Positions 30,001-36,000 of a stretch of DNA of 64,000 nucleotides are shown one piece after another. The stretch is taken from contig JAXHVD010000008.1 in assembly GCA_034189385.1 (NCBI GenBank), positions 32,001 to 96,000 on the forward strand. The letters run 5' to 3'. The stretch's first letter is position 1. Every line of letters begins with the position of its first letter. The DNA comes from Thermodesulfobacteriota bacterium. GTDB taxonomy: Bacteria; Desulfobacterota; Desulfobacteria; Desulfobacterales; C00003060. The position numbers are program-made.

Positions 30001-33000
30001 AGTAATCAGCCAGCAGGGGGATGTCGTCTACACGGTCCCGCAAGGGCGGAAGCCACAGGGTCACCACCTTGAGCCGATAGTAGAGATCTTCTCGAAACCG
30101 ACCTTCCCGCAAAGCCGCTTCCAGATCTCGATTGGTGGCAGCAATGATCCGCACGTCCACGGGGATGGGTTCCCTTCCGCCAAGGCGTTCAATACTCTTT
30201 TCCTGCAACAAACGCAGAATCTTGGCCTGGATGCTGAAAGGCATGTCCCCGATTTCATCCAGAAGGATCGTTCCTCGGTCCGCCTGCTGGATCTTTCCTA
30301 CCCGCCGACTTACAGCGCCGGTGAAGGCCCCTTTCTCATATCCAAAGAGCTCGCTTTCCAGAAGGGTTTCAGGGATGGCCACGCAGTTGATGACGAGAAA
30401 GGGTCTATGGGCCCGAAGACCGTGCTGATAGATGGCCCGGGACACCAGTTCCTTGCCCGTACCGGACTCGCCGCGAATGAGCACAGTGGCCTCAGTGGGG
30501 GCCACCCTGCCGATGGCCTTGTAGACATCCTGCATGGCCTTGCTTCGACCGATAAGGGCATCTTCCGTCGTCGTCTCAGGGGCCACATCCATCTTGACCC
30601 GTGATCGCATGAAGCGGCCGGCTTCAAGGGCCTGTTTGATGACGGCCAGCATGTCAGGGATTTCAAAGGGCTTTAAGACGTAGTCATAGGCCCCAAGCTT
30701 GGTGGCTTCAATAGCAGTCTCTGTAGTGCCAAAGGCGGTCATGATAATGACTGGCAGCTTTGGCTCTATGTCGCGCATGGCCTGGAAGGCCTCCAAACCA
30801 CCCATGCCAGGCATACGCACATCCATGATCACCAGGTCAGGCACAGACTCTTCTACCAGGGCCACGCCCTCCTCGCCGGTGGACGCGGCTTGGACACCGT
30901 GGCCCTCTTCCACTAAGAGCTTGCCAAAGCTTTGCCGCAACTGGACGTCGTCGTCAACGATGAGGATCTTAGCCAATGTGTTACTCCTTGTACGGAAGGG
31001 TGATCTTAAAAGTAGCCCCCTTCCCTTCTTGTGACTTGAGGTTCAACCAACCTCCGTGTTCTTCCACAATGCGGGCTGCGATGCTCAGGCCCAAACCTGT
31101 GCCCTCTTCTTTTACACTAAAAAAGGGTTCAAATAACCTGCCCTGAATCGCTTCTGGAATCCCTGGCCCGTTGTCAGTCACGGCGATGATCGCTACATGT
31201 CCCAGTCGTTCTACTACTTCATCTTGCTCGGAGATCACGATCTTTCCCCCTTTGCCCATGGCTTCGCAAGCGTTGATCAGAAGGTTCACCAGGACCTCTT
31301 TCAACTGCTCCGGATCGACCGAGATTTCAGCAAGGCGCTGTTGACGATCAAGTTTGACCTCGGCGTCGTAGGATTGAAGGCGGTGCTTTAAGAGCTGGAG
31401 GGTCATGTCCACCACGTCTGAAGGGCTGACCTTTTGCATCTTCAGTTTGGGCGGTCGAGAAAACTCCAGAAAGTTCTGAACAATGTTGTCAATATGACGG
31501 ATCTCTTCAGAGATGACGCCCAGGTCCTCTTTCTGCGTACCAGTGGTATCCAGTGTCCTTTCCAACGAAAAGAGCCTCATCTTCACAGAAGTCAAGGGAT
31601 TTCTGATGCTGTGAGCCACCCCTGCCGCCAACTTTCCCACCAGGGCCAACCTTCCCGACTGCAAGAGGTGTTCCTGGCTCCGTTCAAGCTCCGTCTTGGT
31701 GTGACCCATATCTTCCCGCAGGCTGTGGACTTGATGGCTGATGGCCTTCACTTCATTGCCGGGGGCCACGTAGCCTTTCGTATCATGGGCATCTGCGGCC
31801 AACCTGCGAAGGGGGTTTAGAATCTGGGTCACAAGCACAAAGGCCAACAAGGCGCCAAGGAGCATGGCCGTCCAGAGGGCCATGGCGGCGATGACCCGAA
31901 GACGCTTTGCCTGGCCATGACTCCTGTCCTGTGCAAGCCTGATTCTCTCCTTATGGATGTCCTTATGCCCCTGGCACAGTTCCAGGATTCTGAAAAAGTG
32001 CCCTCGGACCTTCTCATGGAGTATGGTCCCCACTTGCCGCTCTCCGGCCTTATAGAGGGCAATGACACGGTCCTTATCTTCTATGTACTGGCCATACTCA
32101 GACTCGATTTGGCCAATAATTTGCCTGTCCTGTTCCGTTTGAGCAAGGGCCTTGACCTCTTTCAGCCTCTCCTTAAAGGCTTGTCGATACTCGCCCAGTT
32201 TCTCGAGCCAGTCCGGATCGCCGTCCAAAAAGTAGTAGGAGACAAATCCCTTCTGGTTCACCAGGGCGCTTTCCAAACCCTCTGCGGTCTCAAGGGCTGC
32301 TACATCTCTTTCCACCAGTCGGCTGACAAGGCCGTCCATCTGGTAGGTATACCACATCATGACAGAGCCGCCTGCCAAGGTGATGGCTACCAGAACAGCC
32401 AATATCAAAAAGAGACGGGCCCGCAGACTAATGCGCTTCCACATGTGGGCATTCCACGGCCCAAGGGGCAACAAAAACCCTCAGGCCCTTTTGAAGTGTT
32501 CGTCTCCCACCCAGGAGAGATACCATGGGGCACCTTATCTTAACCTATAGGAAAATACTACCCAGCAGTCTTCACCATATGACGTTTTGGGAAGCCCACA
32601 AGCCCTTCTCCTGCCCAGTGCTACCCTGTGACTAGAGTCTCCCTGGAAGTAAGGAGGTGATGATGGGTCTTTATCTCTGTTATTTCGATAACGCGCTCTA
32701 CTGTTTGGGTAGCGGCTTGTGTTGGTTCTACGCCGGTCTCTGACACGCCACGGATCCTTTCAACAGAATAGTCCCCCCTTTTCTCTGCCCACTTTCTAGC
32801 CTCAGCCCCGGCAATATGGACTGAGAAGCTCTGATGACCCCTTTCAGGTGTTTCACCGATGATGTGAACCACGACCTTGAACTCCGAAGAAGCGCGTCCT
32901 TTGAAAAGAGCTTCGCCCACGGCATTACCTGCCTCCCCCCGCCCATTCTTTACTGCAATGGTTTCCTCGGCCACGGTATAGCCAGCCTCTTTGAGCTCCT

Positions 33001-36000
33001 TCCTCAGAGCCGCCAAGTATGGTTTCAGAAGGGTCTCGGCCATGACAGCTTTGGCGTTGAGGCCGTCGGAAATAACGATCAGAACATCAGGCCCCTTTTC
33101 GGCCCACGTCTTACTCAGTCTATCTAACGTGGCAACGGCAGCCTTGCTGAGGTCCCTGCCTGTATCTGGACGGGCGAAGTAGTCTTTCCGGTCCTCGGCC
33201 ATGGTTTCGATGACCACAGCCTTGCCGAGGGCCTTTACGAATTCCGGAGTGAACTCTGCCCAGAAAGATGCCTGGACGTCCCGGCAAAAAGAGGCGATTT
33301 CCTCGTGTAACGCAGGCTCCAAGTCCCAGAGGTTCTTCCCGTGACCCCTGGCGATGGGCACTCCTCTTGCCTGAACCCGATGAATGGCGGCCTCGCCTTC
33401 TGCATAGATCTCAGCCCTTGGGCGCTCATCTCCTTTGGCCATCCTATAGCGATAGTAGACCCAGACAGGATCCCCGAAGTGCTCCGTGTAATTGTCCTCA
33501 TAGTCAACGATCTCGATCCGCTTGAAAAAGCCCCACATCTCATCTCCCACCTTATAACCGAACTTGTGCCGCAAACGCACGTGGTCCTGATAGGACGTGG
33601 TGATATAGTGCAGCGCGGGATCGAACCTCGTGGGAAGGGCCTTTACGTAGGCCGGGTTGGCCGGCATGATTTGGTCCATACACCAGTCCAGGTCGGTGGG
33701 GCTTGCAAGCATGTTAAGCCTTGAGGAGACATCAACTCCCATGGTGAGGCCGTGGAGTTTACCCATGAAGATGTCTTCCAGACAGCACCTCACAAGCTGC
33801 TGTGGGGTGTTGAAGACTTCAGGCCCCAGGGATCCGCCAGCGTCATTGGCATGGGACCATACTTCTTTTTCTGGGGCGACTCTGGCCATCTCCTTTTTCA
33901 AGGCCCTTGAAAACCCATACTTGCGCGCTTCATGGATCACCATGTCAAAACCATTTCCTGCGCCGTGAATGAAGTCATCGCCCTGACCGGTTTCGTGGTA
34001 AAGTCCAAATATGCCGGTCCGCATTTTTGCATATCTCATCATCTTTTTAATAGAAATACCAAGGGCCTCGTTGGCATCGTCACATCCGGCCAGCCTTTGA
34101 AACCAGATGCCCCCCTTAATTTCCGGGTATGTTCTCTCAACCTCGGCCTGGGCATCTATGTGGGCCAGGGCACACCAGGGGATCACGTCTTGGAGTCCAA
34201 AGGTGACGATCACATCCTGGATGGCCCGTGTCATGGTGGCCACATTTTCGACAGTGCCATCCACAGGGTTTGCGCCGGCAACGAGATCTCCGGTGGCGTA
34301 ACTCCAGGCGTCGAAGATCTGCCACTGAATGTCCTCAAGGTGATCCTGTGGCGAATTGGGCTGGATGCGGGCGCTGAGGTAACCCTTGCCCCCGACGTTA
34401 CTTCCGGGCAATGGGTTGAAGACGGTCCGTCCCACAAGGGACAGTTCGGAATTGGTCATGAGTTTGGTGACGCAGCCAATGGCGTCACTGGTGAGGCCCC
34501 ACATGATACTTTTGATGTCCCCTTCTGGCCTGGTGAGAAGGAACGTCTTCAACTCACCCATGGTCCAGTCTTTGACTCCATGGTACTGGGCCTTGTCCGT
34601 GGTTTCTTCGATCAATTCTTGCAGCTCGTCTTCAAACAATGGATGCTCGTGAATATCCTTGATCCTGGTATGGGCAAGGAGCATCCGCGCATGGACTCGC
34701 GTGATGGGATCATCTGCAGCCACACGAATGGCCTCGTCGCCTTCCCTATAGGGATTGGCGGCGCCGATGACCTGCCGGTAAAGGGTACGATGGAATCTTC
34801 CCTTGATCCGCTTCACATATGCGAACACATCTTCGCCGGGCCTAACATCTTTTATAGTTACTGCAGCGGCGTGGGTGCCCAACGAAAGGCATCCCCAAAG
34901 CACGACGCCTGCCACAAGGCAGGTGCGAATCCACCTCAGCACAATCCCCTCCTCCTAAAAGGCACTCTGTGTATTTCTCCTCACGACTATGGCTCTGATG
35001 AGTAAAGGGACCACGACATCCCATCCCGGACGTGATCGTCCATCGGGCTTGTTGCCCAGCCTCCTTTTTGCTCGTCGTCGGGCCTTGTCCAGCAGGCAGT
35101 AAGCAGGCTCAAGAACTGCAACTGCCAGTCTTTTCAGACCACCCTTGCCCATGCCTCACAGCGGCGCAGACATGTCTCAGGCATTTTTTCTGCTCACAAG
35201 ATTGCCAGGCCAAGTGAAGTGTCGACCTGGGCCAACCCTTGGGAGGATCGCTATTTGCCATGGGGTTGAGACGAATAAAGGGTTGGAAGGATCGGTCAAG
35301 TCAAAGAGAGCCCTTTGGACATTTTCCAGATCTCTCTGTCTAACACGGATGGCCCAGAATTGTCAAGAGGGCCTTCGGCCTTGACACTGGTGGACCTTTC
35401 GACTATACTCACTTCGCCAAACATTGCGTCTTTACTACTTTTTTTCGTGGATCGGCACAATATTGCTTTGCCTGTCACGGGGGCTGTCGCCTTGACGGAC
35501 AATGAGCAAAGATAATGGGAGGGAAAGATTGATGGAAGTGTCAGAAGAAGAAAAACAGGCATCCCGGAGCGAAACTACGGTGGCCCTGTTGGACGAGGCG
35601 CGGGTGTTTCGTCCCCTGCCCCAACTGGTGGTTGAGGCAAACGTTAATCCGAATGATTATGAAGAGGCTGTAAAGAAAGGAAGGAGCGATCTGGAGGGGT
35701 TCTGGGAGGAAGCGGCCGAGGACCTTCATTGGTTTAAGCGTTGGAGCAAGGTCCTGGACCGCTCCAATTCCCCTTTTTACAACTGGTTCGTCGATGCCAA
35801 GACCAACATCGCCTACAATGCCTTGGATCGTCACATGAGCACGCCGCGAAAAAACAAGGTGGCCATCATTCACGAGAAGGAGAATGGCGAACGTGAGCGG
35901 ATGACTTACTATGACCTTTATCGTGCCGCCAATCAGTTCGCCAATGTGCTAACGTCGTTAGGCATCAAGATGGGAGACCGGGTGGCCATCTATCTTCCGA

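What a model noticed while it worked through the whole genome (the two positions that open the first line are those of the whole stretch)
32621..34942. Fused EutB-EutC ethanolamine ammonia-lyase with a conserved Sec signal peptide
g03587 is a single-chain EutBC that begins with a typical Sec signal peptide, kept in homologues from other families. This points to an exported adenosylcobalamin radical enzyme, whereas Eut lyases are known as cytoplasmic or microcompartment enzymes.
Evidence so far: EutB 55-487 and EutC 564-757, hydrophobic N-terminus ending A-A-A. 7 of 150 other phylum genomes (four families) have the full fusion; all six correctly read N-termini show a basic-hydrophobic-cleavage pattern. 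Aligns to solved EutB including the A-R-x-Q-P-N and E-T-G-Q-G segments.
(Added by a program. Inside this text positions count along the whole contig: contig position 32,001 is position 1 of the stretch shown here. "Call 12" and the like, gene names such as g00115 and contig names such as C1 are that model's own, and its searches are not shown. The text may have been shortened before it was handed on; [...] marks where a part breaks off. The agent that wrote the report below was given it as the finding of a first reader that could run no searches.)

Follow-up and report, generated by a model that had tools for sequence, protein, structure and literature searches.

The report
Exported, probably inactive, fused ethanolamine lyase
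This gene belongs to a family of vitamin-B12-dependent ethanolamine-splitting enzymes that, unlike the textbook ones, carry signals for export out of the cytoplasm, but this particular copy has lost many of the residues that face the cofactor and is probably kept for something other than the original reaction.

Summary
In detail: window 32621-34942 (minus strand) encodes a 773-aa EutB-EutC fusion with a Sec-type signal peptide. The fusion itself is published (Pelobacter carbinolicus, PMC3543383); I found no paper on export (six searches), but this scan noted it before on other DNA (three notes). Export is well supported: 111 of 120 close homologues pass a Sec test (0 of 26 cytoplasmic controls), and 40 of 102 related loci carry a twin-arginine (Tat) signal instead, so 'conserved Sec' is only half right. 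The family keeps the E. coli active site (86 of 89 loci match at all 23 sites checked) and is most likely a periplasmic ethanolamine ammonia-lyase; Sec-type members travel with a porin, a Btu-like ABC importer and a half-size MFS protein, Tat-type members do not. This copy is different: it lies in a small clade with changes concentrated on the barrel's catalytic face (20 of 72 versus 4 of 110 conserved columns), differs at 11 of the 23 sites, and has lost the accessory genes, yet stays intact under purifying selection (dN/dS about 0.2). Most likely an exported pseudoenzyme. Nothing here was tested at the bench.

The parts
32621..34942 (-). eutBC fusion gene, 773 aa, single copy in the genome
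   Evidence: AlphaFold model pLDDT 89.8, best match 3abo_A, TM 0.89 over the target
34948..34956 (-). Shine-Dalgarno-like AGGAGGAGG, 5 nt before the GTG start
   Evidence: sequence
34862..34942 (-). Sec/SPase I-type signal peptide, residues 1-27; predicted cleavage after A27
   Evidence: own heuristic; SignalP not available; helix 2-21 then low-confidence 20-25 in the model
34781..34861 (-). family-specific N-terminal extension, residues 28-54, conserved in Sec and Tat members, absent in signal-less members
   Evidence: column identity 0.73; absent in L070-72 and L158
33482..34780 (-). EutB-like TIM barrel, residues 55-487; keeps R160, Q162, N193, E287, D362, L402, Y404 (E. coli numbering) but has S247R, F258L, S292D, V326A, F329S, C364S, T366R, H368N, M392K, M401A
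33254..33481 (-). conserved helical linker, residues 488-563, in place of the EutC N-terminus (no encapsulation peptide)
   Evidence: column identity 0.76; helices in the model; E. coli EutC aligns only from residue 106-118
32672..33253 (-). EutC-like domain, residues 564-757; V207G, K208E, R229T, G231E (the GERPG motif reads GETPE)
32624..32671 (-). His-rich C-terminal tail of 16 residues, found in four of five clade proteins, cut off by a stop in L057; probably not essential
   Evidence: pLDDT under 50

Best explanation
The gene is a member of a single-chain EutBC family that is exported across the cytoplasmic membrane (Sec in this lineage, Tat in many others). Typical members most likely act as periplasmic ethanolamine ammonia-lyases: ethanolamine enters through an outer-membrane porin and is split to acetaldehyde and ammonia outside the cytoplasm, so the periplasm stands in for the microcompartment; turnover needs only adenosylcobalamin; the acetaldehyde diffuses in and is oxidised, for example by the aldehyde:ferredoxin oxidoreductase often encoded nearby. 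Tat members can leave folded and cofactor-loaded; Sec members must be loaded outside, which may be why only they travel with a Btu-like ABC importer and a half-size MFS protein (inferred: a cobamide recycling loop). The window's copy belongs to a derived clade that has lost the half-MFS gene, in this lineage also the ABC genes, and has rebuilt the cofactor-facing loops. It is most likely a still exported, still folded pseudoenzyme that no longer runs the adenosylcobalamin radical reaction and is kept as a periplasmic small-molecule-binding protein. Shown here: fusion, signal anatomy, Sec/Tat exchange, residue changes, gene losses, purifying selection. Inferred: export itself, the family's activity, this copy's inactivity and its binding role.
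For: Export: 102 of 120 pass a strict Sec test at the aligned cleavage site, 111 of 120 with a free site, 0 of 2060 internal 40-mers, 0 of 26 cytoplasmic controls including 13 split EutB and 6 proteins of a second, signal-less fusion family; 49 Sec, 40 Tat, 4 none, 9 with the 5' end missing among 102 loci; Sec loci of 8 kb or more carry a periplasmic binding protein in 23 of 37 and a TorF/Gcw_chp-like porin in 22 of 37, Tat loci in 0 of 27; no microcompartment shell gene found in this genome (90% complete). Family activity: 86 of 89 non-clade loci match the family consensus at all 23 sites, and that consensus equals E. coli at 21-22 of them; P. carbinolicus strains grow on ethanolamine and the genome paper names only fused eutBC genes, one of which is P0076 with a Sec-type N-terminus. 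This copy: 47 changes at 274 columns that are at least 95% conserved, family median 1; on the catalytic face 20 of 72 against 4 of 110 elsewhere, p=5e-6; clade support 100/100, sister to the intact same-genus copy; clade member P0030 has R160A, N193Y, Y404R; half-MFS gene absent from the clade's loci and not found in this genome; reading frame open in all clade members, dN/dS 0.19-0.34, eight derived residues identical in all five clade proteins.
Against: No localisation or activity data; the signal test is my own heuristic, it missed 2 of 7 other presumably exported controls and passes 175 of 861 long ORFs of this genome. The two residues whose role I could read in a paper (R160, E287) are kept in this copy; the roles of the altered residues are recalled from the E. 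coli structure paper, which was not held. dN/dS near 0.2 is also seen in the neighbouring ThiF-like, USP and kinase genes (0.15-0.21), so it does not single this gene out. The Sec/accessory-gene link is one related group of organisms, not independent events, and several Sec loci lack the accessory genes (13 of 37 without the half-MFS gene). The genome paper reads the neighbouring binding protein and membrane protein as an ethanolamine uptake system, which fits a cytoplasmic enzyme better. No ligand is indicated by any conserved neighbour.
Confidence: 0.6

Rival explanations
1. This copy is an active exported cobamide-dependent radical enzyme with a changed specificity (a bulkier or anionic amino alcohol, or another cobamide): the pocket was rebuilt, not broken.
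For: R160, Q162, N193, E287, D362, L402, Y404 all kept; eight derived residues fixed in five of five clade proteins, including M392K and EutC R229T; the catalytic face is still under constraint, 4-11 non-synonymous against 10-18 synonymous changes in five clade pairs; the genome uses adenosylcobalamin, with two methylmalonyl-CoA-mutase-family genes.
Against: The same positions show 0 non-synonymous changes in four intact-family pairs; ten further derived positions vary among the clade members; P0030 lacks R160 and P0003 has N193D; cofactor-side motifs of EutC are hit as well; the accessory transport genes are lost.
Confidence: 0.18
2. This copy is simply a gene on its way out: ethanolamine use was abandoned, the operon is being deleted piece by piece and the reading frame survives for a while under weak structural constraint.
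For: Stepwise loss of neighbours: half-MFS gene gone in the clade, ABC trio kept in L057/L058 and gone in the window and L056; dN/dS two to three times that of most intact pairs (0.19-0.35 against 0.04-0.14); 34 of 36 other genomes of the genus have no match; private changes such as V207G are absent from the 96% identical L056.
Against: No stop or frameshift inside the domains of any clade member over dS about 0.5 and down to 61% identity; dN/dS far below 1; signal peptide and ribosome-binding site kept.
Confidence: 0.15
3. The family is not exported: the hydrophobic N-terminus is an uncleaved anchor or is ignored, the enzyme works on the cytoplasmic side, and the neighbouring binding protein and membrane protein import ethanolamine, as the P. 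carbinolicus genome paper proposed.
For: PMC3543383 passage; adenosylcobalamin is made in the cytoplasm (established knowledge); Acinetobacter EutBC localises to the membrane without a microcompartment (PMC9426561); signal-less members of the same family exist.
Against: Two unrelated export signals, Sec and twin-arginine, sit on the same enzyme; basic n-region and small residues at -3/-1 are conserved while the rest varies; some Tat members have a lipobox-like Cys (7 of 40 flagged).
Confidence: 0.06

Closest known systems
Ethanolamine ammonia-lyase EutB/EutC of E. coli, Salmonella, Listeria (EC 4.3.1.7; PDB 3ABO, 2QEZ)
   Same: TIM-barrel EutB and EutC domain; R160, Q162, N193, E287, D362, Y404 kept.
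   Different: One chain instead of two; signal peptide and 27-residue extension; no EutC encapsulation peptide; no shell genes found; below the NCBIfam cut-offs (524 of 554; 79 of 230); this copy equals E. coli at only 12 of 23 checked sites, the family at 21-22.
Fused eutBC1/eutBC2 of Pelobacter (Syntrophotalea) carbinolicus, Pcar_0491/Pcar_0467 (PMC3543383)
   Same: Same family: P0076 is 56% identical over 96% of the length, same fusion, same Sec-type N-terminus.
   Different: The passages and supplement rows I saw describe the fusion and neighbours but no signal peptide. P0076 has the intact site and sits among binding-protein, porin-like, membrane-protein and cobalamin genes; the window's copy has neither.
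Microcompartment-free 'short' eut loci, e.g. Acinetobacter baumannii EutBC (PMC9426561)
   Same: Works without shell or EutA reactivase; membrane-localised, a precedent that the lyase can do without EutA.
   Different: Two subunits; the paper has no occurrence of 'periplasm'; split EutB proteins fail the signal test (0 of 13).
Tat-exported reductive dehalogenases (recalled, no call)
   Same: Corrinoid enzymes that work outside the cytoplasm.
   Different: They use a non-adenosylated cobamide with Fe-S clusters for reduction, not adenosyl radical chemistry, and are unrelated in sequence.

Membership tests
Ethanolamine ammonia-lyase (EutB/EutC) | EutB TIM-barrel and EutC domains | tested here: met
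   Pfam above cut-off; 3abo_A TM 0.89, rmsd 2.2; 3abo_B/D matched
Ethanolamine ammonia-lyase (EutB/EutC) | NCBIfam curated cut-offs for EutB and EutC | tested here: not met
   524.5 against 554 and 79.2 against 230; the EutC model includes an N-terminus that the fusion lacks
Ethanolamine ammonia-lyase (EutB/EutC) | Catalytic R160 and E287 (PMC4155860); substrate-binding Q162, N193, D362, Y404 (recalled) | tested here: met
   window R192, Q194, N225, E317, D404, Y446
Ethanolamine ammonia-lyase (EutB/EutC) | Adenosyl/cobalamin- and pocket-facing residues (EutB S247, F258, S292, V326, F329, M392, M401; EutC V207, K/R208, R229, G231; roles recalled) | tested here: not met
   all 11 changed in this copy; 86 of 89 other family loci unchanged at all 23 sites
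Ethanolamine ammonia-lyase (EutB/EutC) | Adenosylcobalamin-dependent release of acetaldehyde and ammonia | not testable with these tools
   needs an assay
Microcompartment-type Eut system | EutC encapsulation peptide, shell genes, EutA | tested here: not met
   EutC N-terminus replaced by linker; no BMC match; EutA only a 44-residue weak match; genome 90% complete
Pelobacter-type fused EutBC family | Full-length homology, extension 28-54, linker 488-563, place in the family tree | tested here: met
Sec/SPase I substrate | Basic n-region, hydrophobic h-region, small residues at -3/-1, supported start | tested here: met
   own heuristic with controls; ribosome-binding site
Sec/SPase I substrate | Cleavage and periplasmic location in cells | not testable with these tools
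   needs fractionation or a reporter fusion
Tat substrate | Twin-arginine motif RRxF(L) | tested here: not met
   absent from this copy; present in 40 of 102 related loci
Lipoprotein (SPase II) | Conserved lipobox Cys | tested here: inconclusive
   L-W-G-C at 15-18 in this copy, but the Cys is not kept in most homologues and the conserved feature is A-x-A before V28

The most novel reading that the evidence does not exclude
A widespread family of adenosylcobalamin radical lyases works in the periplasm, using it in place of a microcompartment; its Sec-exported members are loaded with cofactor outside the cytoplasm by a cobamide loop (half-size MFS exporter out, Btu-like ABC importer back); and the window's clade has turned the enzyme into a periplasmic binding protein for a new, possibly anionic ligand (gained Lys at 392 in five of five, Arg at 366 in four of five, Arg/Lys at 247 in three of five).
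Probability: 0.25. Interest if true: 0.88.

Novelty: new variant of a known kind. Interest (0 to 1): 0.62.

Why it matters
Adenosylcobalamin radical enzymes are treated as cytoplasmic or microcompartment enzymes. An exported family, in about 5% of the genomes sampled from this phylum, would show a third way of handling acetaldehyde and would raise a question that can be tested in a cultured organism (P. carbinolicus): how does a Sec-exported apoenzyme get, and renew, its coenzyme B12? The linked half-size MFS protein is a concrete candidate for the unknown cobamide export step. For annotation it matters that this copy and its clade are probably not working lyases, so ethanolamine use should not be inferred for this genome.

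Tried and rejected
(1) Sensor partner of the downstream histidine kinase/sigma-54 regulator (window 29543-32474): rejected as a main reading; in L058 the ABC trio lies between them, so the adjacency comes from a deletion, and the pair is not a neighbour of intact copies. (2) Missing adenosyltransferase as proof of inactivity: CobA, PduO and CobS were not found in this genome, but 15 of 15 congeners have CobA and the genome has two mutase genes, so the gap is probably incompleteness; not used. (3) Complex prediction of the intact same-genus enzyme with its ABC binding protein: no answer, score 0.00; no evidence either way. (4) Two independent Sec/Tat switches: the best tree needs two changes but a single split is not rejected (AU p=0.063); direction unresolved (root differently). 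(5) Expression: no RNA holder listed. (6) Riboswitch: Rfam found no RNA family in the window locus L013; one cobalamin riboswitch and one tRNA in the other 8 loci. (7) Promoter/terminator scan: at chance level. (8) Clade as a second copy beside an intact one: single copy in this genome; second copies in G565, G375 and G619 are not of this clade. (9) Conserved neighbours of Tat members: none in more than 6 of 35 loci. (10) ESM Atlas for the half-MFS protein: best scores 0.77, leads only; Foldseek no match at E<=0.001. (11) The E. coli structure paper (Shibata 2010) and the comparative-genomics paper (Tsoy 2009) were not held; the second may mention the fusion or a signal peptide.
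Full report
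Observation. The finding's coordinates are window coordinates; the gene lies on the minus strand at 32621-34942 (contig C63:64621-66942, single copy). It encodes 773 residues from a GTG with AGGAGGAGG five bases upstream. Pfam gives EutB 55-487 and EutC 564-757; NCBIfam matches both but below cut-off. The PDB search finds Listeria and E. coli EutB and E. coli EutC; the AlphaFold model (pLDDT 89.8) matches 3abo_A at TM 0.89, rmsd 2.2. Contigs of other runs and the 96% identical locus L056 confirm the sequence.

The signal peptide. Residues 1-27 have a basic start, a hydrophobic core and A-A-A before V28. In the 120 proteins listed (the best of 3184 hits, this protein included) the first 24 columns are variable (identity 0.35) but hydrophobic (mean hydropathy 1.3), positions -3 and -1 are mostly Ala (78 and 104 of 120) and the mature part is 0.73-0.80 conserved. 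SignalP is not available, so I wrote a heuristic: 102 of 120 pass at the aligned site (most misses are truncated starts or a site shifted by one residue), 111 of 120 with a free site, 0 of 2060 internal 40-mers; 0 of 26 cytoplasmic controls pass, 5 of 7 other presumably exported proteins do, and 175 of 861 long ORFs of the genome. The stronger argument is exchange of signal type. Among 102 loci (four duplicates dropped, near-identical loci remain, and the metagenome scan kept the best 80 of 154) 49 are Sec-type, 40 carry a twin-arginine motif (7 of them with a lipobox-like Cys), 4 have none and 9 lack the 5' end. In even samples, 6 Sec and 3 Tat among 9 of 300 class genomes, and 13 Sec, 1 broken Sec-like and 5 Tat among 19 of 400 phylum genomes (read by eye). 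At least one Sec/Tat switch is certain; the best tree has two but one is not rejected (p=0.063). Signal-less members exist and also lack the 28-54 extension. A second, separately placed EutBC fusion in 6 of the 300 class genomes has no signal, so fusion alone does not bring one.

The family looks like a working lyase. I mapped E. coli EutB and EutC on the family alignment and chose 23 positions. R160 and E287 are documented (PMC4155860: part 1 of 3 and passages; E287A and R160A give no turnover); the roles of the others are recalled from the structure paper, which was not held. Of 89 non-clade loci covering all 23, 86 match the family consensus fully and 3 differ at one; the consensus equals E. 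coli at 21-22. [quoted passage not shown]

Gene neighbourhood. Sec-type loci of 8 kb or more (37) carry an uncharacterised 260-aa membrane protein in 24, an ABC binding protein in 23, its permease in 21 (best NCBIfam matches corrinoid ABC ATPase and BtuC, below cut-off), a TorF/Gcw_chp-like porin in 22, MoxR in 19, a polyamine-type binding protein in 11 and an aldehyde:ferredoxin oxidoreductase in 8; of 27 Tat loci none has these except one MoxR. The membrane protein folds as half of an MFS transporter (pLDDT 90; Z 17.1, rmsd 2.9 over 203 residues, many MFS rows close behind). It occurs in 15 of 401 phylum genomes; 13 of these are among the 14 Sec-type carriers and none among the 5 Tat carriers. 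These genomes are related, so this is one pattern, not many events. It fits the logic that a Tat substrate can leave cofactor-loaded while a Sec substrate must be loaded outside; it also fits, less well, the published reading as ethanolamine uptake. Cobamide excretion by an unknown route is reported for Salmonella (PMC13532332, abstract and outline only), and a lyase that works without EutA for Acinetobacter (PMC9426561, passages).

This copy is not typical. At 274 columns conserved in at least 95% of 116 others it has 47 changes; P0003, P0004, P0005 and P0030 have 35-58; the next protein has 16 and the median is 1. These five form a clade (100/100) that is sister to the intact copy of a same-genus genome (100/99; 2 of 36 congeners have one). 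Defining the catalytic face from the eight barrel strands of the model, 20 of 72 conserved face columns are changed against 4 of 110 elsewhere in EutB (p=5e-6; similar in the other four). The copy keeps R160, Q162, N193, L225, E287, D362, L402, Y404, but has S247R, F258L, S292D, V326A, F329S, M392K, M401A and in EutC V207G, K208E, R229T, G231E: 11 of the 23 sites. P0030 has lost R160, N193 and Y404 as well. The orthologous locus in four metagenome contigs shows stepwise loss: the half-MFS gene is gone in all that reach that far, the ABC trio remains in L057 and L058 and is gone in L056 and the window, which puts the kinase/regulator pair next to the gene. The flanking Acs and oxidoreductase are 93-94% identical where this protein is 79-82%. 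dN/dS is 0.19-0.35 within the clade, against 0.06-0.11 for Acs, oxidoreductase and regulator, 0.15-0.21 for kinase, USP and ThiF-like genes, and 0.04-0.14 for seven of eight intact pairs (the eighth, 0.36, has dS 0.008). At conserved face columns five clade pairs show 4-11 amino-acid-changing against 10-18 silent differences, four intact pairs 0 against 8-23. So constraint is relaxed at the active site but not gone; eight derived residues are identical in all five proteins and ten more are derived but variable.

Mechanism. Family (about 0.75): periplasmic ethanolamine ammonia-lyase; porin entry, radical deamination outside the cytoplasm, acetaldehyde oxidised inside, cofactor supplied by Tat co-export or, for Sec members, by a transport loop (inferred, about 0.35 for the loop). 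This copy (0.6): exported, folded, no longer a working lyase, kept as a binding protein; rivals are changed specificity (0.18), slow decay (0.15) and no export (0.06). The gained basic residues near the barrel mouth hint at an anionic ligand, which is speculation.

Novelty. The fusion is in print. Six full-text searches (listings and abstract starts) and passages of the review PMC5821096, PMC3542024 and PMC4594438 showed no exported or inactive EutBC; the library lacks most subscription papers, and the two most relevant were not held. Passages of PMC8473560 and PMC10947579 added nothing on residues beyond E287. Three earlier notes of this scan report the export signal on other DNA, seen after I had found the Tat members; none was found on a degenerate clade. 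Verdict: a new variant of a known kind; interest 0.62, carried by the family's export and the cofactor-loading question, lowered because the fusion is known, nothing is tested in cells and this copy is probably not the active form.

Noticed in passing
L054:11473-12267 (+) and 30 further loci; not in the window: Uncharacterised 260-aa membrane protein without Pfam or NCBIfam match that folds as half of an MFS transporter (Z 17.1) and co-occurs almost only with Sec-type fused EutBC; by position probably Pcar_0490/Pcar_0466. Candidate cobamide exporter or ethanolamine/ammonium carrier.
   Followed up: partly
L034-L037, L040, L041: A second EutB-EutC fusion of about 730 aa, about 31% identical, without signal peptide, branching with the split EutB proteins: an independent fusion, in 6 of 300 class genomes.
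   Followed up: partly
P0129: A twin-arginine, lipoprotein-like member with its own degenerate active site (13 of 23 sites changed), outside the window's clade: a second loss of the catalytic pattern.
   Followed up: no
P0124, P0130, P0132, P0133, P0136, P0139, P0153, P0156, P0160, P0177, P0217: Family members with long low-complexity or presequence-like N-termini that look eukaryotic (no taxonomy given); those covering all 23 sites keep the active site. P0124 has a 400-residue N-terminal addition.
   Followed up: no
L002 (record titled Pedobacter sp.): The locus is 92% identical to the Pelobacter protein and syntenic with Pelobacter loci: probably a mislabelled or mixed bin. It holds a cobalamin riboswitch at 11355-11538 between the half-MFS gene and cobalamin genes.
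   Followed up: no
window 1-1796 (-): Multiheme c-type cytochrome (paired CXXCH, MtrC/NrfB-like matches) followed by an exported beta-barrel-like protein cut by the window edge; resembles a porin-cytochrome conduit (label recalled).
   Followed up: no
window 35502-43240: Acetyl-CoA synthetase, ThiF-like gene, aldehyde:ferredoxin oxidoreductase and an ExbB/ExbD/TonB-like set (these last labels read from the sequence, not searched) lie upstream and are syntenic in L058 and L059; this oxidoreductase is only 39% identical to the one beside intact copies.
   Followed up: partly
G000 whole genome: No CobA, PduO or CobS match although 15 of 15 congeners searched have CobA and the genome has two methylmalonyl-CoA-mutase-family genes; probably a gap in the assembly.
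   Followed up: partly
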